Under the pieces are notes generated by a model, which had not been told where the DNA came from, searched no databases, and saw only the letters and a program-made list of their open reading frames with translations. The position numbers were made by a program, and so were the translations under genes. From IMG/VR virus record IMGVR_UViG_3300043416_000094, positions 1 through 56,909 of that record: a DNA stretch of 56,909 bases; one strand, given 5' to 3'. The stretch's first letter is position 1. Each line of letters starts with the position of its first letter. Source of the DNA: a virus (lineage: Duplodnaviria > Caudoviricetes). Below are positions 10,459-23,890 of the stretch, piece by piece.

Positions 10459-10546
10459 ATCAATCTCCTAAGCTCCAACTCCGCTTTTGCTCCGTCTCTA
10501 CGGTCTGCGTTAAGCGTAATGGTCAGCTACAGTTAAGGGGTAGTTG

Positions 10547-10780
10547 CTATCGCAACTTCTCTACTACATCCGCCGATGTTTCGACGGCAATCAAAAATTC
10601 TTGTAGCAAGGCTGCTCGTCCTTGAAGCCGGGCGAACGTGTCGCTATCGGCTCGTATGAGAGCATCCTTTGTTTGCGTATCTAAATTTTTAAAGAACTCC
10701 AGAAGAGGTCGCATTTCTACTGACTTCATCCGGTTCAGGGCTTGCGCTACTGGTAAGTCTACAGTATTGAAGCCCTTCAT
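10547..10780 (-). CDS. Small head-morphogenesis-region protein
   Basis: RLQGRAALLQE motif common in genes between portal and scaffold. Confidence 0.7.
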   Translation of the reverse strand: MKGFNTVDLPVAQALNRMKSVEMRPLLEFFKNLDTQTKDALIRADSDTFARLQGRAALLQEFLIAVETSADVVEKLR

Positions 10781-10786
10781 GCGAGC

Positions 10787-10815
10787 ACATTATCAGTCAT
10801 AAAGTAAGGTGTCAA
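10787..10815 (-). promoter_or_regulatory. Sigma70-type promoter, probably giving a leaderless mRNA
   Basis: TTGACA-17 nt-TAATGT-6 nt-ATG on the minus strand; no SD sequence. Confidence 0.65.
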
Positions 10816-10853
10816 TCAAGTTTGGGGCTTATCAGCCCCTATTTAGGGGTAAC

Positions 10854-11012
10854 TTACTTCTTTTTGGCAGATTTCATGTTCCGCATACCCATCATCATAT
10901 GCATTCCTTCCTTCTTTTCAGCCTTTTTGTAGGCTGCAGGAGCCAATTTACGCTCCTTTTTTTCCATTTTCTTGGGTTCTTTCGACTCGTACATTGCCAT
11001 CATTTTAGCCAT
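10854..11012 (-). CDS. 52-aa Lys/Met-rich basic protein (not in ORF track)
   Basis: GAGGTG RBS; translates as MAKMMAMYESKEPKKMEKKERKLAPAAYKKAEKKEGMHMMMGMRNMKSAKKK. Confidence 0.7.
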   Translation of the reverse strand: MAKMMAMYESKEPKKMEKKERKLAPAAYKKAEKKEGMHMMMGMRNMKSAKKK

Positions 11013-11086
11013 AAATCACCTCATTTTTATCAAAGTTTGGGCTAAAAACGCCCGTTGGCCCATATTTCTGGGTATTTTTGCTGCAA

Positions 11087-11320
11087 TTACCTGTATCCCG
11101 CTGTCTTCTTGGCGATACTCTTTGGTTGAGCTACAAACTGCTTACCTGCGGCCTTGCCCTTGCGTTTAGCTTTGGTTGTTGCTGCGTACTCGGCAGGGGT
11201 AAGGGCTTTAATAGCAGCTTCAGGCAGGTATCGTTCACCCGTCTTTGACGAGGGTTTACCTGACTTAGTACGCCATTTCTGGTCACCCCAATCTTTAAGA
11301 GATTGTTGTTGCGCTTTCAA
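11087..11320 (-). CDS. Small basic protein
   Basis: TTG start overlapping the upstream TGA; QSLKDW..QKWRTKSGK..ERYLP motif. Confidence 0.75.
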   Translation of the reverse strand: MKAQQQSLKDWGDQKWRTKSGKPSSKTGERYLPEAAIKALTPAEYAATTKAKRKGKAAGKQFVAQPKSIAKKTAGYR

Positions 11321-11496
11321 TCTTTGTAACCCCCGCCAGCGGCTTTATACTTCTTGGCAACTAACTGGGCTTTACGAGCAGACCACTGGCCAGCGTCAGT
11401 TCCTTGAACAGCAGCGGCTTTAACCGAAGACACTATCCGTTTACGTAAGGTAGGTTTGGTGTAGTTGCCCGCAGCGTTCACTTTAGACTTGGCCAT
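11317..11496 (-). CDS. 59-aa basic protein (not in ORF track)
   Basis: Translates as MAKSKVNAAGNYTKPTLRKRIVSSVKAAAVQGTDAGQWSARKAQLVAKKYKAAGGGYKD; RBS-like GGGGGTG upstream. Confidence 0.75.
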   Translation of the reverse strand: MAKSKVNAAGNYTKPTLRKRIVSSVKAAAVQGTDAGQWSARKAQLVAKKYKAAGGGYKD

Positions 11497-11512
11497 ACAG
11501 GATCACCCCCTT

Positions 11513-11767
11513 TCAACACTTCCAAGCCCGAAGGCTTTTGTTGATACGGCTATTCGGGTCTTTCGCTGTCTTCTCGGAAGTCAGCTTCTTCTTCATACCG
11601 GTCATTCTGGCGCAGAACGAGTCCTTGCGCTTGCCACCTTCCGGTTGGGGGGCTTTGAGTCCGGGTTTCCCCGGATTCGCTGCGTTGTAGGAGGCTCTGC
11701 CTTTGGCGTTCAAACCACCACTCTCGGCTTTGCCTTCTTTGCGTTGCCATGCAGGTGTCTTAGCCAT
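11513..11767 (-). CDS. Small basic protein (DUF6321-like)
   Basis: PAWQRKEGK..GGLNAKGRASY..RKDSFCARM..SLRAWKC, recognised by eye as a recurrent phage family. Confidence 0.75.
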   Translation of the reverse strand: MAKTPAWQRKEGKAESGGLNAKGRASYNAANPGKPGLKAPQPEGGKRKDSFCARMTGMKKKLTSEKTAKDPNSRINKSLRAWKC

Positions 11768-11769
11768 GA

Positions 11770-12159
11770 TTATTTCAGGAAACGAAGTTTATAGATGGTA
11801 CGGTCAATCAACGCAGCGATCTCGTCGATGATGTTCTGAATGTAGCTCTCTTCGCACACCATTTCACGATTGGAAGACACGTACTCTTTCAAGTACATCA
11901 TGTACTCGATCGGTTCGGTAGGGATAGTGAACGTGCTCGGGTACTTCATAATGATTCCCCGCGCCTGATACACCTCTACGAGACTGTCAGTCAGACCGAC
12001 AATGTTCTCGTAGTACTCTCCAAGGGCACTATGCTGGGAGAACGACGTAGACTGCAGGTGCAGGATGTGTGCATTGGTAGCACTGTGCAGCAAACACATA
12101 ACAAAGTCTGCGGTAGCAGCATCGTTAACGGGCATGTTTAAACCAAGACCTTTGGCCAT
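11770..12159 (-). CDS. Ferritin/Dps-like four-helix protein
   Basis: HILHLQ..SFSQHSALGEYYE..DSLVEVYQ..QNIIDEI..YKL pattern. Confidence 0.65.
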   Translation of the reverse strand: MAKGLGLNMPVNDAATADFVMCLLHSATNAHILHLQSTSFSQHSALGEYYENIVGLTDSLVEVYQARGIIMKYPSTFTIPTEPIEYMMYLKEYVSSNREMVCEESYIQNIIDEIAALIDRTIYKLRFLK

Positions 12160-12176
12160 AGCAGTATCCTAAGAGG

Positions 12177-14366
12177 TTATCCGTTAGCGCCAGTGACTTG
12201 GTTAACCATCAAACTACCCTGACGGCCACCAGCTACCTGCCCATCGGGGAGTGTAACAGGGGGTTTTGCATTTGGATTAGGTTGAGGCAAGCTAAGCCCA
12301 CCGCCGCTTGGAGCACTTCCGTCAGCAGCAGGGCCTACGGTCTTTATTGCACCGGTAAGTGTGCCGTACTCATCTTTTATGTACTCAATCTGTTCTTGGC
12401 GCGGCTGCATAGCTGCCTGCATTGCGGCTTGTTGCTGCTGTGCTGCTTGCTGCTGCTGGGCTTGCAAAGTCTCAACGTTAGGAACAATCTTGTCTATGTT
12501 CATGTCAAGCATTGAAGCGTGTTCGCGTAGCAGTTCAGCCGTACCAAGCGGCCCAACAATACTCTGAGCAATTTGGTTAGTGAGCACCAGTTGCAGGAAC
12601 TCAGTCCTACGAACAGCCGCCGACTCCTTGGCCACCAGACTCATAGCGCCTTTGGCAACTATGTTCACATCACCAATCAGATCGGGGTCTTGGCTATAGC
12701 GCAGGTTGTGTTGGTACAACCGCTCCAGTAGGGGAGTGAGTACACCTTGGTCAATCGAACTGATAACAGACTTGATCGACTTGGAAGCGTTGGAGATCAA
12801 CATCGACAGACCAGATGCCGTACGCCCAGCACCCGGAGCATTCTCGCCGGTCATGTAGCGCGGAATGCCAGAGTACTCGTCCGCCAAAGACTGAAACTTC
12901 TCAAACACGCCCATAAGCTCGTTGGCGTTACTCTGCGGTTGGAAGAACGTCATAGGCTGGCTGGCGTCTTGGTAGTCCGAGTTCTGGAACTGCCAAATCT
13001 TCCACGGGTACATCTGGGTGATCGGTTCCCCAGCGGGCAAGCGACTGACGTTGATGCCAACTTGCGGGCCTGATGAAATACCCATGTTATTTGACAAAGC
13101 CCGCGCTGCGGCATTGCACATGCTCTGGCAGTCACGGATCAAATCAGCCACGCCGTTGCCCCAGAACGCGCCGGGTACTTTCTCGTACGAAGCCGTGTAG
13201 TACGGCTTACGAGCTAGCGGATCGTAGTTCAACACCGCCTTGATGACGGTAGAGCCGATCAACCAAATCTCACACGGGTACATCTTTTCTTTGTCAGGAA
13301 CGTCATCAGCGGACATGCCCCACTCTACAAGCAACTTGCCCTGCACCGAGTCCCACAGTTGGAGCGCGTCGATCACATCCTTGGCTCGCTCGGTTTCAGC
13401 GGTGTACTTGCCAATAGCTGTGCTGACTTCCTGATCTATTGAGATCATGTCGTGCATTCCGCCCCCAGTCTGGAAGTTTTCCAGAATGTTACGTAGGGCT
13501 GGCTCACTGTACCCCTCAACGCCGATCAGAGCTTGAATGTCTTCTCGCGTAAGACGATGGCGCTCAATAAAGTATCCATCATGCGGAGACGAAGCCCAAG
13601 GTGAGGGGTAGCACATGAACGGATCAACGCGCTCCCATTCCAACACGATTCGTTCGATTGGAACAAGTCCACTACCCTGCCACTGCAACGACTTGCGTTT
13701 GCGGGCAACCGGCCCTTTCAGTATGGCCGTCGGGTAGGTAACAATGTCATCTATGAAAGCGGACATAGCGTCGCGGAAGTGACCTTCCTGCAACTGATCT
13801 TCCATTTTCATCGACATCCGATCAACGCGCTTATCAGCTTCGTCTTTCAGATGGCGCATTGCCTCGTCGCGCATCCGTTCCCACTCAGCACGGACTACTT
13901 CCTCAGTGGGAGGTTCTCCGGTAGTCTCAACCAACATCTGTACAGCTTGAGTAAGTGCAGCCTCAGCCATACGATTAACGTCTGGGGGTAGATCAGGAAT
14001 TGGAGTGCTGTCAATAGTCCACGGCTTGTCACTGCCAGAACCCAACAAAGTATCACGAAGCCAGCTTGCTGCTCCACGACACTTGGTGGAAGTCAGCATC
14101 ATAAAAATCTCAGAGCCGCCCATCTTCTTGATCTGAGTCAAGATGTCCGGATCGTACTCGCCATTGCGTTGACGCAAGCACTGCAGTAGACGTTGCTCGG
14201 GAATCTGCTTGGCAGTACGAGCTGCTTGCCATCGGGTTCTTACATGAGCAGCGAGTCCCTGAATGACGGGATTAGTTTGCTGTGCATCGTACTCAGCTTG
14301 CTGCTGAGCTTGCTTCTGAGTTTCCAGTTGCGTCGAACTGGATACAGGAATCAGGGCCAAAGCCAT
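12177..14366 (-). CDS. Portal protein
   Basis: 729 aa directly after TerL; FWGNGVADL and RTASGLSML motifs; Gln-rich tail. Confidence 0.88.
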   Translation of the reverse strand: MALALIPVSSSTQLETQKQAQQQAEYDAQQTNPVIQGLAAHVRTRWQAARTAKQIPEQRLLQCLRQRNGEYDPDILTQIKKMGGSEIFMMLTSTKCRGAASWLRDTLLGSGSDKPWTIDSTPIPDLPPDVNRMAEAALTQAVQMLVETTGEPPTEEVVRAEWERMRDEAMRHLKDEADKRVDRMSMKMEDQLQEGHFRDAMSAFIDDIVTYPTAILKGPVARKRKSLQWQGSGLVPIERIVLEWERVDPFMCYPSPWASSPHDGYFIERHRLTREDIQALIGVEGYSEPALRNILENFQTGGGMHDMISIDQEVSTAIGKYTAETERAKDVIDALQLWDSVQGKLLVEWGMSADDVPDKEKMYPCEIWLIGSTVIKAVLNYDPLARKPYYTASYEKVPGAFWGNGVADLIRDCQSMCNAAARALSNNMGISSGPQVGINVSRLPAGEPITQMYPWKIWQFQNSDYQDASQPMTFFQPQSNANELMGVFEKFQSLADEYSGIPRYMTGENAPGAGRTASGLSMLISNASKSIKSVISSIDQGVLTPLLERLYQHNLRYSQDPDLIGDVNIVAKGAMSLVAKESAAVRRTEFLQLVLTNQIAQSIVGPLGTAELLREHASMLDMNIDKIVPNVETLQAQQQQAAQQQQAAMQAAMQPRQEQIEYIKDEYGTLTGAIKTVGPAADGSAPSGGGLSLPQPNPNAKPPVTLPDGQVAGGRQGSLMVNQVTGANG

Positions 14367-14392
14367 TATTAGGCTCCCACGGTTGTTTCCCT

Positions 14393-14422
14393 ACTGTAAC
14401 AGGTTACCACGATACTACGCAA
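14393..14422 (-). promoter_or_regulatory. Possible sigma70 promoter for the portal operon
   Basis: TTGCGT-18 nt-TACAGT with an extended -10 TG, just downstream of the TerL terminator. Confidence 0.4.
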
Positions 14423-14425
14423 TAG

Positions 14426-14460
14426 AAAAACCCCCCACACCCGGAACCGGGTGCGAGGGC
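14426..14460 (-). terminator. Intrinsic terminator after terL
   Basis: CCCTCGCACCCGG / CCGGGTGTGGGGGG hairpin followed by TTTTT. Confidence 0.7.
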
Positions 14461-14513
14461 CAAGTGCCAGAGGATGGTCTGGCAACGAAGGAGATGAAGC
14501 AGATGGCATTATA

Positions 14514-15932
14514 TCATGCCGCCCAGCCTGCGGAAGAAACTGTCTGAACTTCCCGTCTAGCACCAGACGACATGGCCGTCGCCCCTGCATTATCTATACC
14601 CAGAGCCAGATACTGCAGCGCATCCTGATCGTGGCTGAACGCATCTTTCATAGGGGAAGTCTCGTACTCCCCGTTCTGCTTTCGCTTGTACTTGTACCCG
14701 CCGTACAGTCCCTGTATCAAGTGCTTGCACCGGGGGTCGATCAGGAACATGGCCTTGCCATCTATTTGCTTAGAAAATAGTTTTTCTACAGCAGCTATCC
14801 GTTTCTCTGGAATATTCGTAGGCGCTCGCATGGCAGACATACCCTGCCTTCGGAACACGTCGGCCACCGATTCCTCACTTATCTGGGTTTTAGCCCACCC
14901 CGCAGGGTCACCAATTACCAGAACTCTGTTACGTGGAAACCTCTTTGCAAGCAAGGGCTTGACGTATTCTTCTAGAAATTTCTCTAGGCCAATGTTCTCC
15001 TCGTACAAGGAGTCCAGCACGTTGACCGCCCCCTTCGGGGTGCGCTGGCCAAACACCGCCGCCGGGGTTCTTCCGAAGTCCATCCCAATCATTATCGGGT
15101 AGTTCTCAAACTCTATGGGCAGCAGGGGTTCTTTGGCAACGTGGAAGTCTTTGACAAACGACGTTTCATACACCGCCCGTCCTACCAACGACCGACCGTA
15201 CTCGCCGTGGACATGCACCCGAATGAAGTCCTCGGACGCCCCATCCATCATGTCCTCGTAGTAGGTAGGCCCGAGCGCATCCAAGTTCTCGGCATGTGGG
15301 GACGTGCCGCTGGGCTGTTTGAATATCTCCCAACCGTTTGGCTTCTTCACTTCAAACTGCTCGTACAGCCAAGAATCTTCGGACGGCGGGTTTGTATCCA
15401 TGATCAACCCAGACCAGTACTGCTTCTCTCCGGGCGGCAGCATGGCCTTTGACGGGTAGCGCGGCATCCGGGTACGGGCTGCAATTATCAGGTCAGGATG
15501 TACTTCACGGGCTTCATTGACAAACACTCCGGTCACTTCAAGGGACAGCAGTCGGCGTTGGTCATCCGGGGTATCCAATGGGATGAACATGATCTCTGCC
15601 CGGATGTCGTCTAGCTCCAAATAGAAAGTCGAGTCCGACTCCTTCCAGTGGCCAACTATCCCATCAGGAAACCACTGAGTCCAAGTTTTGAACGTGGTTT
15701 TCTTTAACTGATCTCTTGTGTTACGCACGATGACCCACCGGCTTCTGCGAAAGCCATCTTTGCACTTGGGCATCTCGTAGCACCGGCGCAGTATCTCAAA
15801 GCAACACACCGTGGACTTGCCAGAGCCAACCGGCCCCATGATAAGGCGCACCGAAGAGGTAGCCGCCATGAACTTTTCGCCCGTGGGCGTGGTGGTGTAG
15901 TCAATCTCGTGCTTGGCTGAGACTTTACTCAT
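14514..15932 (-). CDS. terL: Terminase large subunit
   Basis: Walker A GPVGSGKS, Walker B VFVNE, coupling motif DTNPP, nuclease motifs GMDFG and SHDQDALQY. Confidence 0.95.
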   Translation of the reverse strand: MSKVSAKHEIDYTTTPTGEKFMAATSSVRLIMGPVGSGKSTVCCFEILRRCYEMPKCKDGFRRSRWVIVRNTRDQLKKTTFKTWTQWFPDGIVGHWKESDSTFYLELDDIRAEIMFIPLDTPDDQRRLLSLEVTGVFVNEAREVHPDLIIAARTRMPRYPSKAMLPPGEKQYWSGLIMDTNPPSEDSWLYEQFEVKKPNGWEIFKQPSGTSPHAENLDALGPTYYEDMMDGASEDFIRVHVHGEYGRSLVGRAVYETSFVKDFHVAKEPLLPIEFENYPIMIGMDFGRTPAAVFGQRTPKGAVNVLDSLYEENIGLEKFLEEYVKPLLAKRFPRNRVLVIGDPAGWAKTQISEESVADVFRRQGMSAMRAPTNIPEKRIAAVEKLFSKQIDGKAMFLIDPRCKHLIQGLYGGYKYKRKQNGEYETSPMKDAFSHDQDALQYLALGIDNAGATAMSSGARREVQTVSSAGWAA

Positions 15933-16389
15933 CGTCAGGATCGTCAGCAAAGGGTTCGACTTCTTCTGGTACGGCGTACTTTTTCTCTGGTAAAGCTAGA
16001 GTTGCTTCTTCTACAGTTTCTTCATCAGAAGACATGCTGGCGCTCTCTATTACTAAAGGAGAAGAGTTTTTAGAAGGCATGTTGATCGTGATGGATACAA
16101 GGCCACCGACAACTTCCTTTGCCAAGTTCTTGGCAGCTAGACCGGATAGTTTGTAGTTGGCATCCAACGCATCGACCAAAGTCTTAACAGAGGCAGCGTC
16201 ATCAACGGCTCTCTTGGTCAACTTCTCAGCCAGTATATCCACGTTTACCAACGCCTTCTGTCGAATGAACTCGGATAGGAATTTCTCCGCATCCGTTTCG
16301 GACAAGGTTGGTGGTACGCCAGAGATAGGGCCAGTCGGTAATGCAAACCCAAGATCAACGGCGGGAGCGATCGTATCGTAATCGGGCAT
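15925..16389 (-). CDS. Putative terminase small subunit
   Basis: Overlaps the terL start; 154 aa with a VSITINM strand. Assigned by position only. Confidence 0.55.
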   Translation of the reverse strand: MPDYDTIAPAVDLGFALPTGPISGVPPTLSETDAEKFLSEFIRQKALVNVDILAEKLTKRAVDDAASVKTLVDALDANYKLSGLAAKNLAKEVVGGLVSITINMPSKNSSPLVIESASMSSDEETVEEATLALPEKKYAVPEEVEPFADDPDDE

Positions 16390-16544
16390 ACCTTAACTAT
16401 ACATGATGTTTAGAGAAAATGGTAGTAAAGTTAAACTTTATAGGGTGAAAAAAGTAGCTGGGATATATGAGAGTCCATTCAGTGGGAGGGTGGGGGCGTT
16501 GCCTCTGTGTCCCTGTGGGGCGGGGGGTCGGTCGGTCAAAAAAT

Positions 16545-16581
16545 CTACACACACGCCGCCCCTATCCTACACACACGCCGC
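16545..16581 (+). repeat. 15-bp direct repeat CTACACACACGCCGC x2 (22-bp period)
   Basis: Copies at 16545-16559 and 16567-16581, next to a G-tract region. Confidence 0.8.
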
Positions 16582-16600
16582 GCCGCGCTTTACAGCATCC

Positions 16601-17160
16601 CCCTATTGTAGGGAACGCAGCGAAGATAGACGATTCGAAACGGACAAAACTGCATAAGGAAAACGGCGGGACGGCATGAATCAGCCCCCTGATACGCTCC
16701 AAATGCACAATGCGGGATCGTTGATTACATAGTGCGTGAACTACTTGGCAGTTAACCGCGACTTGGTTAACTCGGAAAACCCTAGGGATGAAATGCGATC
16801 TCCGGAAAAATTGGGTGTAGGCAAAGGTGAAGAGCCGAATTATCTTCATCCGTTGAATTGAGCGCATTAGCGCAGTCCGATTGGACTAATCAATTCAGGT
16901 AGGCACAATAATCTACTGTACGCTTGTCCGGACTACCGGATCGGCAATAAAGATAGAGGGTCGTTCTCACAGGCTGAATTTTCCTGACGACAGTGCCGCT
17001 TCCTACCAATCAGGTAGGTAAGGCTGGGGAGTCTATCCCTAACCTACGCACCGATTATGGTGCAGGGTTAGGCTTACCTTTGGCAAGGGTAAGTGACTCC
17101 CTAATCAATCTTAGATAGTTAGGGTTAATTAGGGAGTCAGCATCCGCTGATTCCCAGCCT
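16601..17160 (+). ncRNA. Candidate large structured RNA (~560 nt) of unrecognised family
   Basis: About 15 hand-identified stems in nested multiloops, many with G-U pairs that work only on the + strand; no convincing ORF. Confidence 0.65.
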
Positions 17161-17177
17161 AATTATTGGAGATATCC

Positions 17178-17687
17178 ATGAAAGCTAAATTCCTCGAAGT
17201 AGCCAAAGCCAGCACCATGATTACCAGTATCGCCAAGCGATCGGCAAAGCTGGATACTGATATTCAGCAAGTGGCAATGGCTGCAATTTTTCATTGCAAC
17301 ACGCACAACAATGCGTCCATTGGCATGAATCTGGTGGGGGCGTTGTCTGGCGGTACGCGCCGCACTAGCCTTATCGTTTACTTGTGCACTCACGGAAAGT
17401 TCGAGTGGAACAAGGACGCTAAGGCGTTGGAGTTTGCTAAGCGCGATGATGTTCTGGTCGATGCCGACGCCCTTCATGCCGTGTTGTCGGCTAACCTTTG
17501 GCATGATGCCGTGCAAGAGAAAGACCCGTCCGAGTACCTTGATGTAGCTAAGTCTGTCGCCAGTCTTATCAAGCGTATTCAGAAGGCAACCGCCGAGGGA
17601 CAGCGTATCGAGTGGGGCACAGATTCCACCGCCATGCTGTTGAAGGCTGTTGTTGTCGATGGTTGCGAGATCAACATTGCAGAGTAA
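17178..17687 (+). CDS. First early gene, conserved-looking hypothetical phage protein (169 aa)
   Basis: GGAG RBS just after the structured RNA; followed by a terminator. Confidence 0.85.
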   Translation: MKAKFLEVAKASTMITSIAKRSAKLDTDIQQVAMAAIFHCNTHNNASIGMNLVGALSGGTRRTSLIVYLCTHGKFEWNKDAKALEFAKRDDVLVDADALHAVLSANLWHDAVQEKDPSEYLDVAKSVASLIKRIQKATAEGQRIEWGTDSTAMLLKAVVVDGCEINIAE

Positions 17688-17705
17688 CCACCGCACCGCC
17701 AACCC

Positions 17706-17735
17706 GCCCCCATGCTTCCACAGATGGGGGCTTTT
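17706..17735 (+). terminator. Intrinsic terminator
   Basis: GCCCCCAT-10 nt-ATGGGGGC followed by TTTT. Confidence 0.75.
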
Positions 17736-17743
17736 CCGTTTGT

Positions 17744-17810
17744 TAACGCTTAAGGTACATCGCCTTAAGCTGATTTATTAACTAACGCTTAAGGTACATT
17801 GCCTTAAGCT
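17744..17810. repeat. Two 28-bp palindromic direct repeats separated by 11 bp
   Basis: TAACGCTTAAGGTACATYGCCTTAAGCT at 17744-17771 and 17783-17810. Confidence 0.9.
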
Positions 17811-17825
17811 ACGATAATACTACCC

Positions 17826-18210
17826 TGCCCTATAAGGTTTTATTGATTGACGAAAAGGTAAAGGTAAGGTTGATCTCACTGCCCTAACTGCCCTAATCGT
17901 TAAATTAGTACGGGCACCGTAATTCCAGTGCAATATCAAGAACTTAACTGCATGGTGCCCTAACTGCCCTAATTTATAAATAATATATACCCCTTTGTAA
18001 ACCGATAACTAATCGTAAGATTTGGCTACTGCCATTACGGTTAGTTACTGCCACTTACAAATTGGGGTATGTCTTTCCAAACTTAGGGCAGTATGCCTTT
18101 TACCCCCCTTTTTCCATCTATTTTCCTTTGATAATCAAGGGGTTACTTACTGCCCTAACTCGAATACCCCTACAGGGCAGTGTTATAAAGATGAACTTAC
18201 AAGTAGGGCA
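17826..18210. promoter_or_regulatory. Probable replication origin: TGCCCTAA iterons, AT-rich core and two IHF consensus sites
   Basis: About 12 direct and inverted TGCCC(TAA)-like units; AT-rich 17971-17989; WATCAANNNNTTR at 17934-17946 and 18133-18145. Confidence 0.6.
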
Positions 18211-18243
18211 CAATAACTTAGCTTAATTCTTAAGGAGATAGCC

Positions 18244-18453
18244 ATGTTCCGCATCATATTCACCATGCTTTTGACCATCATTACCTGCTTTATCTTTTCC
18301 GAAGCGCATGAAAATACCGCGCCAATCGTGAGCGCCATGTTGTTCATGGGTGGTGTTGTGTGGGGCGCATGGTTCAGCTACGCGGCAATGGCAATTAAAG
18401 CCGAGGCAATAGCAGAAGAAGAAAAGGACACTATCAATGTCAACATCATCTAG
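18244..18453 (+). CDS. Small two-TM membrane protein
   Basis: AAGGAG RBS; two hydrophobic segments. Confidence 0.75.
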   Translation: MFRIIFTMLLTIITCFIFSEAHENTAPIVSAMLFMGGVVWGAWFSYAAMAIKAEAIAEEEKDTINVNII

Positions 18454-18475
18454 ACCCGCCCCCGAATCCTGCGAA

Positions 18476-18503
18476 CACGGTTCGACTCCATGACGGCTCG
18501 CCA
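18476..18503 (+). other. tRNA 3'-half-like fragment (T-arm, acceptor 3' strand, NCCA)
   Basis: CACGG-TTCGACT-CCATG-ACGGCTC-G-CCA with canonical 5/7/5/7/1/CCA spacing; no 5' half seen. Confidence 0.5.
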
Positions 18504-18533
18504 TTAACACCTAACCTTTAACGGAGATACTTT

Positions 18534-18830
18534 ATGAACAACCTTACGATTCGTTTTTGGGTGCAGCAATCCTTGAACGCTCGGGTCACGCCAGACCCAG
18601 AGGGAGACTACAAAGACCACGCTGCGAGATGGCAGAGTGCCGCGCAAGGGTTTCTGTGGGACGCGCACAATTCACTGGCGATCGACCGTAACGGGGGGGA
18701 ACGCCTCACCAAGCTGGAATTGCTTGAGTTGGGGGCAATACGCGGAGCGATTCGAGAGGTGCAGGACATCAACGCCTATGACTGCCCTAACGCTTGGGGT
18801 GAGTGGGCGCGTGCAACCATTAACTACTAA
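18534..18830 (+). CDS. Hypothetical early protein
   Basis: GGAG RBS; 98-aa ORF in the early operon. Confidence 0.75.
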   Translation: MNNLTIRFWVQQSLNARVTPDPEGDYKDHAARWQSAAQGFLWDAHNSLAIDRNGGERLTKLELLELGAIRGAIREVQDINAYDCPNAWGEWARATINY

Positions 18831-18842
18831 CACGGAGGTAGC

Positions 18843-19142
18843 ATGAAACCAGCCCCCGAATCTTTCATTGTAGTAGGTACAAACCAAGGGCAGACCGTGC
18901 CGACTTGGTTCTACTCATTCCGCACCCTGTCATCCTCGCTGTTGTTCGTGGATAAGGCACGGGTGCAATTCCCATCCATAGACTGGATGCCAATGTGTGT
19001 GCCCCAAGACTTGGCAGTCGATGCGCTGCGCCATGTTCAGGCAGTACTAGATGACCCGCATGGACTGCTTTACATAGAGCCATCAGAGTACGAGTTCGTA
19101 GGTGACTATCTCGAACCTTGGGATAGCTTAGCTTTACAGTAG
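18843..19142 (+). CDS. Hypothetical early protein
   Basis: GGAGG RBS; 99-aa ORF. Confidence 0.75.
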   Translation: MKPAPESFIVVGTNQGQTVPTWFYSFRTLSSSLLFVDKARVQFPSIDWMPMCVPQDLAVDALRHVQAVLDDPHGLLYIEPSEYEFVGDYLEPWDSLALQ

Positions 19143-19184
19143 TACCCCGCAATAATAAGAAGTTACATAACCAAGGAGATGACA

Positions 19185-20210
19185 ATGTCTAGCAATGCAA
19201 TCGAGCAAGATTCTGAGTTGGTAGAGATGACTCCCAAGGAGTTGCTCCCGATACTTATTGACCATGCCAAGGCTGGTGAGTCAGTTGGTATCGAAGGGCC
19301 ACCGGGCGGGGGCAAGTCGGAGTTGGTCTTACAGGCAAGCATTGTGGCAGGTAAGCCTATCCTCGCGCCCTATAACCTTGAGTTGTCTGACACTACCGAT
19401 GGCAAAGGACTGCCGTTCCGTGACACAGAGAATCCCAATCAGTTCGTGTGGCTCAAGGACAAGCGCTGGCTGGGTGACTACGCGTTCACCAATTTCATGG
19501 ACGAGTTGCCACGCGGTACTGTGCCGGTGCAAGGCACTGCCGCCATGATGCTGCTAGAGAATCGGGTTGACGATGTTTACCTGCCCAAAGGTACATGGCA
19601 TGTGTGGGCTGGTAACCGGACTAGCGACAAGGCAGGTGCTAACCGTGTGCCGTCCATCATCTACCAGCGTAGTTACATGTACGGCATAACTTATGACGCA
19701 GAGTCACAAGTCGAGTTCATGCTTACCCAACCGGACATGGACTTGCTCACGATGCGATTCCTGCGCATGAAGGGTGATGCTGCGCTGCAGTTCGACCCGA
19801 ACAAGAAGATCAACCCTACCCCGCGTAGCTGGTCTACTGTCGCCCGACTGCTTAGTATCCGACCCAATACGGCATTCGCCACTATCGCTGGCAAGCTGGG
19901 TAAGGGCATGGCATCCGAGTTGTTGTCGTTCCGTGACCTTGCCCCAACCCTGCCCTCACCCGAGGAAGTACTGCTTAACCCTACCAAGGCGCGTGTACCG
20001 GAGAATACATCTGCCCAGTTCCTTGTCACCGATATGCTAGCTGACCGTGCTAACCCAACGACCTTTGATGCACTGGTTCAGTATGCACAGCGTCTAGCGC
20101 CCGAGTTCCAAGGCAAGTTCGTCAAGGACTCTATGACCCGTGATCCGAGTGTTATGACTACCCGCGCATTCGTAGAGTGGGGCGTCAAGTTTGCTGAAGT
20201 CCTTAGATAA
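19185..20210 (+). CDS. MoxR-like AAA+ ATPase
   Basis: Walker A GPPGGGKS, Walker B NFMDEL, AGNRTSDKAG and PTPRSW motifs. Confidence 0.88.
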   Translation: MSSNAIEQDSELVEMTPKELLPILIDHAKAGESVGIEGPPGGGKSELVLQASIVAGKPILAPYNLELSDTTDGKGLPFRDTENPNQFVWLKDKRWLGDYAFTNFMDELPRGTVPVQGTAAMMLLENRVDDVYLPKGTWHVWAGNRTSDKAGANRVPSIIYQRSYMYGITYDAESQVEFMLTQPDMDLLTMRFLRMKGDAALQFDPNKKINPTPRSWSTVARLLSIRPNTAFATIAGKLGKGMASELLSFRDLAPTLPSPEEVLLNPTKARVPENTSAQFLVTDMLADRANPTTFDALVQYAQRLAPEFQGKFVKDSMTRDPSVMTTRAFVEWGVKFAEVLR

Positions 20211-20240
20211 TTAATCATAATTACACAGGAGATACATAGC

Positions 20241-21158
20241 ATGAATATGCCGATTAATGCGGGGGTATTGCAGGAAAGTACCAGCATCGCCAACCGTGCG
20301 ATGAAGTTCAAGTTGTCTAGGGGTGGCACTGCCAAACGCATACGAGACAAGGATGCCGAGTCTTTGGTCAAGGCTACGCTTGGTGACGAAGGGCAGATCG
20401 TTAGCCGCGAGTTGTTCAGCGACAAGGGAAACTTAGTCCATAAGTATCAAGGACTTAGCAACGAGATGTACACCTACCACATCAAGGCTACGCTGCCGTT
20501 CGGCGACGACTCATCACGCGCCCTACCCAATGCGTGTTACTTCGACTACACCGGCAAAATGCAGGACTTCATTAGCCGATTGGATGCGCTGAAGGGTCAT
20601 ATCCTTACACAGTGGGATTCTTTGGTGCAAGTAGATATGCAATCTCGCAACAATCGACTGACCGCGCAGGGTAAGGCAGCATCTGCCAAGTTTGACGATT
20701 ACCCTACCCGCGAGCAGATGGATAGCCGCCTGTATGTGAACTGGTATCCCGAGCCGATCAGCACTAGCGGTGACTTCCGATTCACTGTGCCGCCCGAGAT
20801 GCTGGTCAAGCTGGACGCGCAGTTGGCAGCGATGGTAGAGGAAGCTGGTCGCAGTCTTTACATACGGATGCTTTCGCCTGTAACGGCATTCATCAAGAAG
20901 CTGGACGGGTTCAAGGGTGACAAAGGTCAACGCTGGCACGACAGCTTCATCGACAACCTTAACGCCCTGACCAGCGAGTTGCCGCCTCTCAACATCAACG
21001 ATGACCCGATGGTGACTAGCTTACTCAGTCAGATCGACGCGATCATCAAGCCGTATGTGTTCCAACCCGATGCACTCAGGGAGGATGAGTTCGCCCGTAC
21101 TGAAGTCAAGTCCAAGCTCGAAGCACTCGAAGCCCAGTTGAAGGGTTACGCATTCTAA
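20241..21158 (+). CDS. Hypothetical protein of the AAA/VWA module (DUF3150-like)
   Basis: TLPF..R.LP and DYPT motifs; located between the ATPase and VWA genes. Confidence 0.65.
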   Translation: MNMPINAGVLQESTSIANRAMKFKLSRGGTAKRIRDKDAESLVKATLGDEGQIVSRELFSDKGNLVHKYQGLSNEMYTYHIKATLPFGDDSSRALPNACYFDYTGKMQDFISRLDALKGHILTQWDSLVQVDMQSRNNRLTAQGKAASAKFDDYPTREQMDSRLYVNWYPEPISTSGDFRFTVPPEMLVKLDAQLAAMVEEAGRSLYIRMLSPVTAFIKKLDGFKGDKGQRWHDSFIDNLNALTSELPPLNINDDPMVTSLLSQIDAIIKPYVFQPDALREDEFARTEVKSKLEALEAQLKGYAF

Positions 21159-21171
21159 CTAGGAGATAACC

Positions 21172-22335
21172 ATGTCCGTACCAATGCCAGCGCAACAGCC
21201 AGTTGTTGTAACAGCAGCTATGCGTATGCAAGCCGAGGCTTTGCTCAAGAAGGGTAAAGTTCAGCTTGTATTGCATCAGCCGTTCTTTGCTTGCATCGTG
21301 CTCAAGCGCCGTATCAGTTTGCGTGACGATGTGCCGACTGCGTATATCACTGCCAGAGGTGAGATCAATGTCGGTGTCGCGTTCCTGTGCAAGCTGACCG
21401 TGCAGCAGGTAGTGTTCCTATTTGCACACGAGGCGATGCACTACGCCATGCTGCACCATATCCGTGTCGGTGCTAGGAAGCCTCGCGCTGCCAACATCGC
21501 AATGGACAAGGTGATCAACGACATTCTTGTCGAGTCCCGAGTTGGCGAGCCTATTCCCGAGGGTGTCTACATGGAGGGTGCGCGAGACTACGCTTGGGAG
21601 CAGTTGTACGACGAGAGCGACGATGACGGCAGCGGTGAGTACCAGCCGGGGACTGGCAACGATGACCTGTCCTCTGAGGGCGTTAACGATGTCACTGATC
21701 AGCAGCTAGAGGAGATCAAGCGCGAGTTGATCGACGCGGTGACCGCAGGTAAGAAGGCTGGCAACACACCCGCTAGCATCGTCAAACTTGTTGACTCTAT
21801 CGTGCATCCGGCTACGCCTTGGTATCAGTTGACCGAGCGTTACATGCTGCAGCTTGTCAAGGCAGGTACATCGTGGAAGCGTCCTAACCGTAGGTTCTTA
21901 CCGCACGACCTGTATCTACCTAGCACTGACAAAGAGCCGCGCATGGGTACGCTGGTCATTCAGTCTGACGAGTCTGGTTCTATCGACGTAATCACAACTC
22001 ATCACTGGAACGGGCACATCAACAGCATCATTGATAAGTGCCGACCCGAGCGAGTCATAGTTTTGCATACCGATACCCGCGTAGCCAAAGTCGAGGAGTT
22101 CGAGGCGGACGATTACCCCATTGAGTTCAAGTCCTATGCCGGTGGGGGTACTGACATGACCGCAGGGTTTGCTTGGTGCGAGGAGAACGGTATCGAACCC
22201 GAGGTATTCATCTGTCTTACTGACGGTGAGACGCCATTCGGTGAGCCGCAGTCGTATCCGGTGCTGTGGCTTATTACTACCGAGGGTATCGAAGCAACGC
22301 ACGGTGAAACTATCTATTACGAGGTGACAGAATGA
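21172..22335 (+). CDS. Metallopeptidase-like domain fused to VWA-like domain (DUF2201-like)
   Basis: PFFA, HEAMH (HExxH), NIAMDKVIN, SWKRPNRR, DESGS, GGGTD and LTDG motifs. Confidence 0.85.
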   Translation: MSVPMPAQQPVVVTAAMRMQAEALLKKGKVQLVLHQPFFACIVLKRRISLRDDVPTAYITARGEINVGVAFLCKLTVQQVVFLFAHEAMHYAMLHHIRVGARKPRAANIAMDKVINDILVESRVGEPIPEGVYMEGARDYAWEQLYDESDDDGSGEYQPGTGNDDLSSEGVNDVTDQQLEEIKRELIDAVTAGKKAGNTPASIVKLVDSIVHPATPWYQLTERYMLQLVKAGTSWKRPNRRFLPHDLYLPSTDKEPRMGTLVIQSDESGSIDVITTHHWNGHINSIIDKCRPERVIVLHTDTRVAKVEEFEADDYPIEFKSYAGGGTDMTAGFAWCEENGIEPEVFICLTDGETPFGEPQSYPVLWLITTEGIEATHGETIYYEVTE

Positions 22336-22580
22336 AAACGGAAAATAAAGTCCCTACAGATGATGAACTGGACGAATTGGCCGGTAAGTATTTAGATGGA
22401 GGAGAGACCGAGGCCGATCTTACGGAACTCGTAGATGCTTGCGATAGGGCAGTCCAAAACGACCGCGATGTAATAACAGCGTTCTATAAAAGAAAAATGG
22501 GCCAAGCGTTAACGGAAGCCGAGGCCAACACGCTCGACACAGCGTTCGCTAATGATGCCGAACATAAAGGAGATGAGTGA
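22332..22580 (+). CDS. Small acidic hypothetical protein
   Basis: ATGA-type overlap with the upstream gene; GAGGTG RBS. Confidence 0.7.
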   Translation: MKTENKVPTDDELDELAGKYLDGGETEADLTELVDACDRAVQNDRDVITAFYKRKMGQALTEAEANTLDTAFANDAEHKGDE

Positions 22581-22581
22581 A

Positions 22582-22740
22582 ATGAAAACGTACACAGGCA
22601 TGGTGACTGCAACCTACTGGCATATGGTAACGGTGGAAGCAGAAGACGCGGACGAAGCAGAAGAGAAGATGCAGGAGGAGTTCGACATCATCTCCGCGAG
22701 TGGAGAGATGGAAGTAACTGGAATTAAGGAGGTGAAGTGA
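22582..22740 (+). CDS. Small acidic hypothetical protein
   Basis: AAGGAG RBS; VTVEAEDADEAEEK motif. Confidence 0.7.
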   Translation: MKTYTGMVTATYWHMVTVEAEDADEAEEKMQEEFDIISASGEMEVTGIKEVK

Positions 22741-22741
22741 T

Positions 22742-23206
22742 ATGTCGTTGAATATACCGCAGTCTTTGCTTAACCACTCCAAGCAAGTCAATGCCGTAGT
22801 TAACTTGGACTCTCTAGGCCCGCGCCAGATAGTCAGTTACAAGCGGTTCTTAGCTACGGGCATTATCAAAAGCAACAGTGTTAGCGCAACCTTGGCTCTT
22901 GCAGCAAGGCGTAGTTACGGATTTCCTTCACTAACTGTGAGTAAGTGGGGGGTTAATTGGTATGACATTTGCCCTTCCCAAGATGAGGAATTACTCAAGT
23001 TATTTACCGCCATGATAGTAGCGCAGAAGTTATCTGGGGAACGTAGCTGGTTTGCCGTGCATAACGAAGTAGAAGCAGACCTTAGTAATAGCAAAGGGCG
23101 TTTGAGGATTATTCCTTCTATAACAGCTAATATACTACGAGGATTTAAATTTGCCCCAGCGCCAGCGCCTACTACTGGGCTGATTACTATTCGTTTGTGG
23201 GAGTAG
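22742..23206 (+). CDS. Hypothetical protein
   Basis: GGAGG RBS; contiguous operon. Confidence 0.7.
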   Translation: MSLNIPQSLLNHSKQVNAVVNLDSLGPRQIVSYKRFLATGIIKSNSVSATLALAARRSYGFPSLTVSKWGVNWYDICPSQDEELLKLFTAMIVAQKLSGERSWFAVHNEVEADLSNSKGRLRIIPSITANILRGFKFAPAPAPTTGLITIRLWE

Positions 23207-23208
23207 CA

Positions 23209-23889: not shown

Positions 23890-23890
23890 T

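What the first reader, a model, noticed from the sequence alone, without database searches (positions are those of the whole stretch)
16601..17160. Candidate novel ~560-nt ornate structured RNA at the start of the early arm
Seen in the sequence: nearly the whole gap pairs into nested stems. A long-range helix 16668-16677/16993-17003 closes a ~330-nt domain. That domain contains 16680-84/16689-93, 16703-12/16728-37, 16741-44/16817-20 (enclosing AGTTAACC/GGTTAACT at 16750-57/16765-72), 16826-33/16843-50, a three-way junction 16854-61/16890-97 with GCGC and AGTCC hairpins inside, 16927-31/16936-40 and 16960-64/16987-91. A second multiloop is closed by 17021-30/17151-60 and holds 17038-72, 17073-93 and a 21-position stem 17094-17114/17119-17139 (3 G-U pairs, 1 mismatch). 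Imperfections are mostly G-U pairs on the + strand, which favours a + strand RNA over DNA cruciforms. Known: phages carry large ornate RNAs such as GOLLD and ROOL. I do not recognise this sequence as either. Inference: an undescribed phage ncRNA expressed very early, possibly a scaffold, decoy or anti-defence RNA.
Basis: partly seen in the sequence, partly recalled or inferred. Interest (0 to 1): 0.88.

Follow-up and report, generated by a model that had tools for sequence, protein, structure and literature searches.

The report
Large structured phage early-leader RNA
An uncultivated freshwater phage makes a folded, untranslated RNA of about 557 bases in front of its first early gene; it fits no catalogued RNA family, and related phages carry their own versions at the same place.

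Summary
The hairpins are real and the region is an RNA, but it is a leader, not a shown free-standing ncRNA. All listed equal-armed helices are complementary, and folding beats shuffles at z -5.0 on + and -5.6 on -. In 3 of 3 metatranscriptome runs a contig starts exactly at 16621. One runs on to 17315, inside the 169-aa gene. Three haplotypes differ at 38 leader columns, and 16 of these form 8 pairs changed on both sides that keep pairing. The last ~225 nt are nearly invariant. They have two near-isoenergetic folds, and their arms resemble iterons lying behind the gene, so a DNA operator role is not excluded. Rfam gives nothing. Related phages have non-homologous leaders at the same place, with strong covariation. 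Best reading: a 557-nt structured 5' leader of a promoter-to-terminator early unit. It acts in cis and probably accumulates. Its function is inferred. The scan noted similar early-arm leaders before on other phage DNA.

The parts
16589..16614 (+). Promoter-like block TTTACA-N14-TAGGGA; its last base lies 7 nt before the RNA 5' end. It is not a sigma-70 consensus.
   Evidence: It is the only match to TT[TG]ACA-N11-15-TAG[GT][GA] on either strand of the window. Similar blocks were seen by eye in the gaps of L006 and L012. The sigma-70 scan found 0 sites in 16200-17400. Promoter function is inferred.
16621..16621 (+). 5' end of the RNA (primary or processed, not known)
   Evidence: Contigs of RNA runs X18, X19 and X20 all start at 16621. 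In X19, 23 adapter-like loose letters are joined directly before it. The DNA run X17 has a contig crossing it, 16548-16698.
16621..17177 (+). 557-nt untranslated structured leader RNA
   Evidence: RNA contigs. z -5.96. 8 covarying pairs among 3 haplotypes. The ORFs inside it are not conserved. No Rfam match.
16625..16726 (+).
   Evidence: Covarying pairs 16636/16715, 16651/16707, 16658/16700 and 16670/16688; G-U to A-U at 16668/16690.
16745..16776 (+). Hairpin containing AGTTAACC/GGTTAACT
   Evidence: 12 pairs, invariant in the 3 haplotypes; uninformative for covariation.
16781..16805 (+). Hairpin
   Evidence: Pair 16788/16799 changes from A-T to G-C in L003 and L015.
16826..16850 (+).
   Evidence: Two adjacent covarying pairs in three states: 16829/16847 is G-C or A-T, and 16830/16846 is A-T or G-C.
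16853..16898 (+). Three-way junction holding the GCGC and AGTCC hairpins
   Evidence: Perfect helices. Only a loop change at 16866 and, in the X20 RNA contig, 16873 C>T, which gives G-U on the + strand.
16902..16997 (+). Branched domain including hairpin 16922-16945
   Evidence: Pair 16928/16939 changes from C-G to T-A in L015 and in the X20 RNA contig; 16926/16941 is G-U or A-U. The outer helices are invariant.
17021..17160 (+). 3' multiloop domain. Helix 17021-30/17151-60 encloses hairpins 17038-72, 17073-93 and 17094-17139. An alternative fold pairs 17025-33/17095-17103, 17132-41/17146-55 and 17108-25/17156-73.
   Evidence: Helices are present. Constrained energies are -87.6 and -86.7 kcal/mol. 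Divergence is 0.45-0.9% against 7-12% at third codon positions of the adjacent gene. There is a weak covariance-model match to cluster A's 3' domain: 10 bits, E 0.0098.
17094..17139 (+). 21-position hairpin whose arms resemble the iterons behind the gene. It is a candidate RNase III-type site and/or a protein operator.
   Evidence: 3 G-U and 1 mismatch on +. L003 17109 T>C turns a G-U into G-C. CCCTAA cores lie at 17099 (forward) and at 17119 and 17129 (reverse).
17168..17180 (+). Shine-Dalgarno GGAG (17168-71) and ATG (17178-80) of the 169-aa gene
   Evidence: Read from the sequence. It pairs with 17109-12 in the alternative fold.
17178..17687 (+). First gene of the + arm, 169 aa, PHROG 1448, function unknown
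   Evidence: phrog_1448 at E 3.7e-29. Homologues are second genes near the left end of podophage genomes. The model has pLDDT 83.8 and no significant PDB fold match.
17706..17742 (+). Intrinsic terminator-like hairpin and T-run that close the unit
   Evidence: Sequence and terminator scan.

Best explanation
The stretch is the 557-nt untranslated 5' leader (16621-17177, + strand) of a short transcription unit that runs from a promoter to a terminator. The unit has a conserved promoter-like block at 16589-16614, an RNA 5' end at 16621, the 169-aa first gene of the early arm (17178-17687), and a terminator at 17706-17742.

The leader folds into a chain of stem-loops and small junctions. Selection keeps their pairing while the sequence of the first ~330 nt drifts at about the neutral rate. 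The last ~225 nt are almost frozen. They form a multiloop domain that ends just before the ribosome-binding site.

Inferred mechanism: the leader acts in cis. Its 3' domain sets how accessible the ribosome-binding site is, through two mutually exclusive folds and/or cleavage of the 21-position hairpin by a double-strand RNase, as in the T7 gene 0.3 and lambda N leaders. The compact 5' hairpins protect the RNA, so the leader part seems to accumulate well above the coding part.

Shown: the RNA, its 5' end, the covariation and the lack of a known family. Inferred: the promoter, the early timing, the translational or processing control and the accumulation.
For: RNA. Contigs of 3 of 3 RNA runs start at 16621, while a DNA run crosses that point. 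The X18 contig 16621-17315 has depth 31 and its TerS neighbour has 6. The X19 contig 16621-16925 has depth 62.6 against 12.3 inside the gene. Depth across the phage is very uneven (39.5 over 7001-11010, 0-5 over 17673-27000), unlike DNA.

Strand. The loose letters before 16621 in X19, and those behind 13629 in X18 inside a - strand gene, fit a stranded library only if the 16621 RNA is + sense. This rests on my recalled knowledge of library design. G-U pairs number 6 on + and 1 on -. One-sided changes that keep pairing only on + occur at 16668/16690, 16926/16941 and at 16873 in X20.

Structure. Of 38 variable columns, 16 form 8 doubly changed pairs, 16 are unpaired, 2 are G-U switches and 4 break pairs. 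The consensus fold has 7 covarying pairs against 0-1 in six slid controls and 0 of 500 shuffles.

Non-coding. The start codon of the 101-aa - strand ORF is lost in 2 of 3 haplotypes.

Leader, not a separate gene. No terminator-like site lies in 16621-17177, a contig bridges the start codon, and a terminator follows the gene.

Constraint. The 3' part differs at 0.45-0.9% against 7.1-12.4% at third positions of the gene.

Relatives. Leaders at the same place fold better in sense. Cluster A gives -138.8 against -73.3 kcal/mol with 70 of 134 pairs covarying, against 7-18 when slid. Cluster B gives -126.0 against -95.2 with 21 of 121, against 2-4. Cluster A's 3' domain has the same layout: a closing helix around hairpins, ending at the ribosome-binding site.
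Against: Contigs cannot formally show strand, ends or level, as the tool itself warns. The depth ratios are one figure per contig. The 5' end may be a processing site.

The - strand of the window folds as well as the + strand. Compensatory changes would equally preserve DNA palindromes.

Only 3 full haplotypes and one partial RNA haplotype exist, and several changes are probably inherited together. 4 one-sided changes break predicted pairs.

The 3' domain has no informative variation. Its arms share the CCCTAA core with the iterons downstream, which a DNA-binding reading explains as well.

No sigma-70-type promoter was found. Early timing is inferred only from gene order and from the position of homologues. 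No experiment bears on translation control or RNase cleavage.
Confidence: 0.6

Rival explanations
1. A trans-acting large non-coding RNA. The leader part is released by processing or by stopping before or early in the gene. It accumulates as a stable RNA that works on something other than its own gene, for instance as a decoy or sponge for a host RNase, RNA-binding protein or defence sensor, or as a scaffold.
For: Contig depth of the leader is 5-fold (X19: 62.6 against 12.3) to roughly 13-fold (X18: 31 against about 2.4) above that of the coding part, and is similar to the capsid-gene region at 39.5-66. The size and the amount of conserved structure exceed what control of one ribosome-binding site needs. 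Cluster A leaders keep invariant loop sequences across 65-89% identical relatives, as tertiary or ligand contacts would. Abundant phage RNAs of unknown role exist: an ICP1 transcript of about 800 nt (PMC7567579, passages) and 29 candidates derived from 5'UTRs (PMC10914365, passages).
Against: No 3' end was seen. No terminator-like site lies in the leader. One RNA contig runs through into the gene. Contig depths are poor measures of level. No target is known. GGA motifs are not enriched by my eye count, which was not a tool result.
Confidence: 0.2
2. DNA-level control sites. The inverted repeats, above all the frozen 3' domain with the 17094-17139 palindrome, are operators for a sequence-specific DNA-binding protein that also binds the iterons behind the gene. 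That protein may be the 169-aa product itself. This resembles plasmid Rep genes, which are repressed through inverted half-iterons; that comparison is recalled knowledge. The RNA hairpins would then be by-products.
For: 10 of the 20 CCCTAA cores in the 56.9-kb window lie within 17037-18153. Four are in the 3' domain in both orientations and six are in the iteron block. ACTGCCCTAA iterons occur 4 times directly, with further inverted copies and an AT-rich stretch, in 17744-18226. The hairpin arms differ from the iteron by one base. L024 shows the same layout of gene followed by iterons. The cumulative GC skew has its minimum at 15-16 kb. The weak top fold hits of the protein are mostly winged-helix regulators, but none is significant. 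The - strand folds equally well.
Against: This reading cannot explain G-U states that pair only on the + strand. It cannot explain arms that change sequence while keeping pairing in the 5' 330 nt and throughout cluster A, including its 3' domain. The region is transcribed at high level. The four cores cover only about 40 of the 224 frozen bases. The fold match to DNA-binding proteins is not significant: best E 0.89, and 0 of 52 hits at E <= 0.001.
Confidence: 0.1
3. A replication primer or origin-activating transcript. A long structured RNA is read towards the iteron and AT-rich block at 17744-18226 and primes or opens the origin, as ColE1 RNA II or transcription at the T7 primary origin does (recalled knowledge).
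For: A structured RNA of about 0.55 kb sits just upstream of a probable origin. The GC-skew turning point lies near the gap. RNA-based origins are reported for mycobacteriophage prophages (PMC7157519; I saw only the search listing and the start of the abstract).
Against: A gene and a good terminator lie between the RNA and the iterons. RNA contig depth falls to about 1.5 in 17673-18339. The 3' helix abuts a ribosome-binding site in the window and in cluster A. There is no Rfam match to plasmid primer or antisense RNAs.
Confidence: 0.05
4. A processive antitermination RNA. Like HK022 put or the boxA leaders of rRNA operons (recalled knowledge), the nascent leader modifies RNA polymerase so that it reads through the terminator at 17706-17742 into the rest of the 20-kb early arm.
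For: The promoter-like motif is unique in the window. A terminator separates the first gene from the other + strand genes.
Against: No boxA-like match with up to 3 mismatches lies in 16621-17177: 22 matches in the whole window against 18.5 expected, none in the leader. RNA contig depth behind the terminator is low. 557 nt is far larger than known elements of this kind.
Confidence: 0.05

Closest known systems
Early-operon leaders of coliphages: the T7 leader from promoter A1 to gene 0.3 with RNase III site R0.3, and the lambda N leader with its RNase III hairpin (recalled knowledge; also named in earlier notes e1-3505322 and e1-6128794)
   Same: A leader of several hundred untranslated nucleotides lies between the first promoter and the first early gene. 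A long imperfect hairpin sits immediately before the ribosome-binding site. Homologues of the gene behind it lie at the early end of T7-like phages.
   Different: There is no sequence or Rfam relation and no sigma-70 promoter. This leader has far more structure, about 180 predicted pairs with 8 of them covarying. It heads a one-gene unit closed by its own terminator. RNase III cleavage is untested.
5'UTR-derived phage ncRNA candidates found by ONT-cappable-seq in Pseudomonas phages (PMC10914365; passages read)
   Same: An abundant RNA species shares its 5' end with a longer mRNA and maps to the 5'UTR of a phage gene.
   Different: Those are mostly under 250 nt and are made by a terminator inside the 5'UTR. 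Here the leader is 557 nt and no terminator-like site lies inside it. Whether a shorter species exists is unknown.
GOLLD and ROOL, large ornate phage-associated RNAs (PMC7567579 passages; 10.1101/2024.12.08.627333, listing and start of abstract only)
   Same: It is a large (over 500 nt), phage-encoded, highly folded RNA with no known function, and it is abundant during infection.
   Different: It has no covariance-model match and no tRNA genes nearby. It is joined to a coding sequence. Only local hairpins and small junctions are supported, with no long-range architecture.
Abundant ICP1 non-coding transcript of about 800 nt in an ORF-less gap (PMC7567579; passages)
   Same: A very abundant RNA from a gene-free gap of about 1 kb in a lytic phage, of unknown function.
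   Different: It comes from a different phage group and a different place, beside the lysis cluster. No structure or covariation analysis is reported in the passages I read.
Leaders of related uncultivated phages (clusters A, B and C; loci L021-L026, L034-L048, L019/L044/L030/L045)
   Same: The position is the same, directly upstream of a PHROG-1448-family gene and in many cases facing a divergent ORF across a 400-930 nt gap. The sense strand is structured and covariation is strong. A 3' closing helix ends at the ribosome-binding site. In L024 iterons follow the gene.
   Different: No detectable sequence homology to the window's leader: blastn, and nhmmer --max at E <= 10 and E <= 1, gave nothing. 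The covariance model of cluster A's 3' domain gives only a 10-bit match.

Membership tests
GOLLD / ROOL (Rfam families) | Match to the family covariance model | tested here: not met
   cmscan of the whole window at gathering thresholds gave 0 matches. For 16300-17300 at E <= 10 there were 5 chance-level matches, none to these families.
GOLLD / ROOL (Rfam families) | Frequently next to tRNA genes (PMC7567579 passage) | tested here: not met
   ARAGORN found 0 tRNA or tmRNA genes in the 56.9-kb window.
GOLLD / ROOL (Rfam families) | Free-standing transcript that forms RNA-only multimers | not testable with these tools
   An RNA contig continues into the gene. Multimer formation needs experiments.
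T7/lambda-type early leader with an RNase III site | Untranslated leader between the first early promoter and the first early gene | tested here: met
   The RNA 5' end is at 16621 and the start codon at 17178. The gene family sits at the early end of podophages.
T7/lambda-type early leader with an RNase III site | Long imperfect duplex of about 20 bp just upstream of the ribosome-binding site | tested here: met
   17094-17114/17119-17139 has 21 positions: 17 Watson-Crick, 3 G-U and 1 mismatch.
T7/lambda-type early leader with an RNase III site | Cleavage by host RNase III that changes translation | not testable with these tools
   The host is unknown and no raw reads were available.
T7/lambda-type early leader with an RNase III site | Host sigma-70-type early promoter(s) | tested here: not met
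   0 promoter-like sites in 16200-17400. Only a non-consensus conserved block is present.
5'UTR-derived ncRNA by premature termination | Terminator inside the 5'UTR | tested here: not met
   The only terminator-like site in 16200-17400 is at 17271-17284, inside the gene.
5'UTR-derived ncRNA by premature termination | Short species more abundant than the full-length mRNA | tested here: inconclusive
   Contig depths are 62.6 against 12.3 (X19) and 31 against about 2.4 (X18), but each depth is one figure per contig.
boxA/put-type antitermination leader | boxA-like sequence near the 5' end of the transcript | tested here: not met
   None of the 22 matches in the window (up to 3 mismatches) lies in 16621-17177. 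The consensus was recalled from memory.
Rep-type operator (inverted half-iterons before the gene, iterons beside it) | Inverted repeat whose arms resemble the nearby direct iterons | tested here: met
   The hairpin arms carry the CCCTAA core of the ACTGCCCTAA iterons. 10 of the 20 cores in the window lie in 17037-18153.
Rep-type operator (inverted half-iterons before the gene, iterons beside it) | The gene product is a sequence-specific DNA-binding protein | tested here: inconclusive
   The model (pLDDT 83.8) has a helix-helix-hairpin segment. Foldseek against the PDB gave a best E of 0.89, with many weak winged-helix hits. No Pfam or PDB sequence match.

The most novel reading that the evidence does not exclude
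The window's RNA and the non-homologous leaders of clusters A-C form a clade-wide class of large (about 350-560 nt), fast-evolving structured RNAs. Podophages with two divergent arms would make them in amounts comparable to capsid mRNA at the head of the early arm. These RNAs would do more than control their own gene. A processed, stable leader would act in trans on a host factor such as an RNase, an RNA-binding protein or a defence sensor. Alternatively it would be bound by the winged-helix-like first-gene protein, whose iteron sequence is mimicked in the RNA's long hairpin. That would couple early expression to the start of replication.
Probability: 0.2. Interest if true: 0.8.

Novelty: new variant of a known kind. 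Interest (0 to 1): 0.6.

Why it matters
Structured RNAs longer than 500 nt with comparative support are rare, and most of them still lack a known function. This one has three kinds of support: expression in environmental metatranscriptomes, compensatory change within one phage species, and much stronger covariation in positional counterparts from related phages. It sits at the single control region of the genome, next to a probable replication origin and ahead of a widespread early gene of unknown function (PHROG 1448). Working out its role could therefore explain how this group of phages starts infection. The cluster A leaders, with invariant loops and 66-70 covarying pairs, are ready candidates for a new RNA family and for structure determination. 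If it proves to be only a stabilising leader, it is ordinary biology in an unusually large form.

Tried and rejected
Searches for homologues of the leader found little.
- blastn (distant mode) of the gap against 50,697 GenBank phage records gave no match.
- Scans of viral contigs with the gene and with TerL found only one other contig that holds the gap (L003 = L004 = L020).
- Two pattern scans found only contigs I already had.
- The single metagenome scan gave one more haplotype, L015.
- blastn and nhmmer --max of the leader against relatives' loci gave nothing.
- The covariance model R1 of cluster A's 3' domain did not hit the window with default filters. With filters off it gave one 10-bit match, which I treat as a hint only.

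The closest TerL in GenBank, from Rhizobium phage RHph_TM3_14A at 40%, is not syntenic, so no cultured relative is available.

For the 169-aa protein: no Pfam family, no PDB sequence match, Atlas neighbours that are all unnamed viral clusters apart from weak leads at 0.80-0.81, and no significant fold match. I therefore do not claim that it binds DNA or RNA.

N4-type hairpin promoter: the 5-bp, 3-nt-loop hairpin at 16601-16613 just before the RNA start looked like one. It is not conserved in the relatives as far as I could see by eye. The 2943-aa virion protein has no RNA-polymerase family hit. I dropped this idea.

A protein-coding reading of the gap is rejected.

Parts without RNA contig cover are not used as evidence, since many contig pieces were not listed. 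These are 16373-16620 in X18 and X19, 16926-17005 in X19, and beyond 16989 in X20.

The sliding scan stopped at about 48.8 kb of 56.9 kb. One search ran 12 of the 15 loci planned; L039, L047 and L048 were not run. Cluster C aligns poorly, with 17% invariant columns, so its counts are weak. Supplementary files of the papers were not opened; the TSS and ncRNA tables of PMC10914365 might bear on leaders of PHROG-1448 homologues in phiKMV-like phages.
Full report
Setting. The window is one IMG/VR virus record of 56,909 bp, estimated 97% complete. ORFs run leftwards from 16389 (a 154-aa ORF, then TerL and the portal). They run rightwards from 17178 to 37449 (ATPase, DNA polymerase, helicase, primase-like), and leftwards again from 56411 to 37446. 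The 788-nt gap 16390-17177 is therefore the only divergent junction of the genome. The cumulative GC skew has its minimum at 15-16 kb. The first + strand gene (169 aa) belongs to PHROG 1448 (E 3.7e-29). tblastn finds relatives in 132 GenBank phage records, all below 60% identity. In two of them that I looked at, the gene is the second gene at the left end of a podophage genome. 'Early' is inferred from this.

Observation. The 13th, the long-range helix 16668-77/16993-17003, has unequal arms. The stretch 16601-17160 folds at -200.2 kcal/mol, z -5.0 against 100 dinucleotide shuffles. The reverse strand gives z -5.6. Among 261 windows of 560 nt along the phage, those starting at 17018, 16831 and 16644 rank 1, 2 and 4 on the + strand after regression on G+C (the last 8 kb were not scanned). 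The structure is thus far above chance, but energy does not choose a strand. Rfam gives nothing at gathering thresholds for the window, and only five chance-level rows at E 2.4-8.6 for 16300-17300. No tRNA gene is present.

It is an RNA. Public runs hold the stretch, and I laid three metatranscriptomes and one DNA run on 7001-27000. All are Logan contigs, so the tool warns that ends, strand and level are not formally shown.
- In all 3 RNA runs a contig starts exactly at 16621: X18 16621-17315 (depth 31), X19 16621-16925 (depth 62.6) and X20 16621-16844 (depth 4.2).
- The DNA run X17 has a contig across that point (16548-16698).
- In X19, 23 loose letters that I recognise as a sequencing-adapter tail are joined directly before 16621, so molecules end there.
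- By my recalled knowledge of stranded library design, that adapter on the left means a + sense RNA. The mirror case in X18 lies behind 13629, inside the - strand portal gene, and fits a - sense mRNA. It serves as one internal control.
- Depth across the phage is very uneven: in X18, 39.5 over 7001-11010, 1.6-9.5 over 11003-16338 and 0-4.8 beyond 17673. This is unlike contaminating DNA.
- The leader contigs are 5-fold (X19) to about 13-fold (X18) deeper than contigs inside the gene's later part, and about as deep as the capsid-gene region. I take this as a hint of accumulation only.
- The X18 contig crosses the start codon. No terminator-like site lies in 16621-17177, and a good hairpin plus T-run follows the gene at 17706-17742.

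The unit is therefore: 5' end at 16621, a 557-nt leader, a 169-aa gene and a terminator. This agrees with another first-stage note on this genome (e1-6337484). Seven bases upstream of 16621 ends a block TTTACA-N14-TAGGGA, unique in the window. Look-alikes are present in the gaps of two relatives, seen by eye. It is not a sigma-70 consensus.

Natural variation. Two other full copies exist. L003 is an IMG/VR contig, 98.0% identical over 4.2 kb but 95.3% in the gap. L015 is a metagenome contig, 97.7% identical over 2.6 kb without gaps. The X20 RNA contigs are a third, partial variant. Differences are concentrated:
- The leader's first 330 nt differ at 8.8% (L003) and 6.7% (L015). This is about the third-codon-position rate of the adjacent gene, 7.1% and 12.4%.
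- The last 224 nt differ at 0.9% and 0.45%.
- The 231 nt upstream of the RNA start differ at 1.7% and 1.3%.

In the three-sequence alignment, 38 columns vary. Sixteen of them form 8 base pairs changed on both sides with pairing kept: 16636/16715, 16651/16707, 16658/16700, 16670/16688, 16788/16799, 16829/16847, 16830/16846 and 16928/16939. One of these has an intermediate mismatch in L015. A further 16 columns are unpaired, 2 switch between G-U and A-U, and 4 break a predicted pair.

The RNAalifold structure has 7 doubly changed pairs against 0, 0, 0, 1, 0, 0 in six slid controls, and none of 500 shuffles reaches it. The fold predicted from the window alone has 4, with 6 of 500 shuffles reaching it. 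The X20 RNA contig carries 16928 T with 16939 A, and 16873 C>T, which gives a G-U only on the + strand. The pairs that pass through G-U do so only on the + strand. The 101-aa - strand ORF in the gap loses its start codon in 2 of 3 copies and changes mostly by amino-acid replacements, so the gap is non-coding.

Which fold. Variation supports these local elements: a 16625-16726 stem-loop, hairpins 16781-16805, 16826-16850 and 16922-16945, and, unchanged, the 16853-16898 three-way junction and the 16745-16776 hairpin. The long-range helices of the single-sequence fold have 78-87% of cells paired, against 100% for the local ones. The picture is a chain of hairpins and small junctions, not a shown 'ornate' global fold.

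The frozen 3' domain. Four segments can pair in two ways.
- Fold 1: 17021-30 with 17151-60, and 17094-17114 with 17119-17139.
- Fold 2: 17025-33 with 17095-17103, 17132-41 with 17146-55, and 17108-25 with 17156-73. This covers the GGAG at 17168-71, at -86.7 kcal/mol.

The only informative change, 17109 T>C in L003, improves fold 1 and damages fold 2. Overlapping pairing demands would explain the near-invariance.

There is, however, a second candidate reason. Behind the gene lies a 0.5-kb gene-free block with ACTGCCCTAA four times directly, further inverted copies, a 28-nt repeat and an AT-rich stretch. This is probably the origin or a control region. Ten of the window's 20 CCCTAA cores lie in 17037-18153, and four of them are in the 3' domain, including both arms of the long hairpin. 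A protein that reads the iterons could therefore also read this palindrome, as DNA or as RNA. The 169-aa protein models well (pLDDT 83.8), but its best PDB fold matches, many of them winged-helix regulators, are not significant (best E 0.89).

Relatives. A profile of the gene family found 31 viral loci. Many have a 400-930 nt gap upstream, often facing a divergent 170-209-aa ORF. In 12 loci the 400 nt upstream have mean z -2.95 in sense and -1.78 in antisense, against -1.48 for the gene, and sense beats antisense in 8 of 12. L012 (-5.1 against -1.2) and L009 (-2.6 against 0.0) behave the same way, but L006 does not. The upstream regions fall into sequence clusters, none of which includes the window.
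- Cluster A (6 loci) has a consensus fold of 130-134 pairs with 66-70 doubly changed, against 5-18 when slid. Its sense energy is -138.8 against -73.3 for antisense.
- Cluster B (5 loci) has 21 of 121 pairs doubly changed, against 2-4 when slid, with energies of -126.0 against -95.2.

Cluster A's 3' domain is a closing helix around two hairpins that ends at the ribosome-binding site. This is the same layout as fold 1 here. Its covariance model gives only a 10-bit match to 17072-17139. Rfam finds nothing in 21 relative loci except one tRNA. L024 also has iterons behind its gene. The feature is thus clade-wide in position and kind, but it is not one detectable sequence family.

Mechanism and rivals.
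- Best supported (0.6): a cis-acting structured leader that protects the transcript and sets access to the ribosome-binding site by refolding or cleavage at the long hairpin. In kind it resembles the T7 gene 0.3 and lambda N leaders (recalled knowledge). The control steps are inferred.
- A released, trans-acting RNA (0.2): this fits the depth ratios and the excess of structure, but no 3' end is known.
- A DNA operator reading (0.1): this fits the iteron likeness and the equal folding of both strands. It does not fit the + only G-U states, the sequence-changing arms or the transcription.
- Primer RNA (0.05) and antitermination RNA (0.05): both are weakly supported. No boxA-like site lies in the leader.

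Comparison and novelty. Abundant phage RNAs from gene-free gaps and 5'UTRs are known (PMC7567579 and PMC10914365, passages read). This scan has noted several early-arm leaders in other uncultivated phages (unchecked notes). My searches found no description of this RNA or of the cluster A-C leaders. They were keyword searches of an open-access library and cannot exclude one. I rate it a new variant of a known kind: an unusually large early leader with covariation and expression support, of no catalogued family, with counterparts across a phage clade. Interest is 0.6.

Noticed in passing
window 17744-18226: A gene-free block behind the 169-aa gene holds ACTGCCCTAA iterons (4 direct copies plus inverted ones), two copies of a 28-nt palindromic repeat (17744-71 and 17783-810) and an AT-rich stretch. 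It is probably the replication origin or a regulator's binding array. A comparable iteron block (TCTTACAA / TTGTAAGA) follows the homologous gene in L024 at 3064-3427.
   Followed up: partly
window 16487-16600: Upstream of the RNA start lie runs of G (GGGAGGGTGGGGG ... GGGGCGGGGGG), then two 18-nt direct repeats CTACACACACGCCGC(C/G)CC at 16545 and 16567. This part is more conserved than the leader's 5' part (1.3-1.7% divergence). G-runs also occur at the same place in L006, L008, L009 and L012. It could be a packaging site, a G-quadruplex or regulator binding sites.
   Followed up: no
L021-L026, about 470 nt upstream of the PHROG-1448 homologue: The cluster A leader is a strongly covarying structured RNA (66-70 doubly changed pairs) with invariant loop sequences and no Rfam match. 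It is a candidate new RNA family in its own right.
   Followed up: partly
window 17178-17687: The 169-aa first early gene (PHROG 1448) models confidently (pLDDT 83.8) with a helix-helix-beta-hairpin segment at residues 47-86 that resembles a winged helix. The PDB fold matches are not significant. It evolves mostly by synonymous change (19 synonymous against 3 non-synonymous nucleotides in L015).
   Followed up: partly
window 16601-16613: A 5-bp, 3-nt-loop hairpin CCCTA-TTG-TAGGG overlaps the promoter-like block just before the RNA 5' end. Its loop changes to GTG in L003. It is reminiscent of N4 hairpin promoters, but it is not conserved in relatives.
   Followed up: partly
L005 1-39: This IMG/VR contig, whose TerL is near-identical to the window's, starts inside TerS. 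Its first 39 bases gave an unexplained 87% blastn match to window 16806-16843.
   Followed up: no
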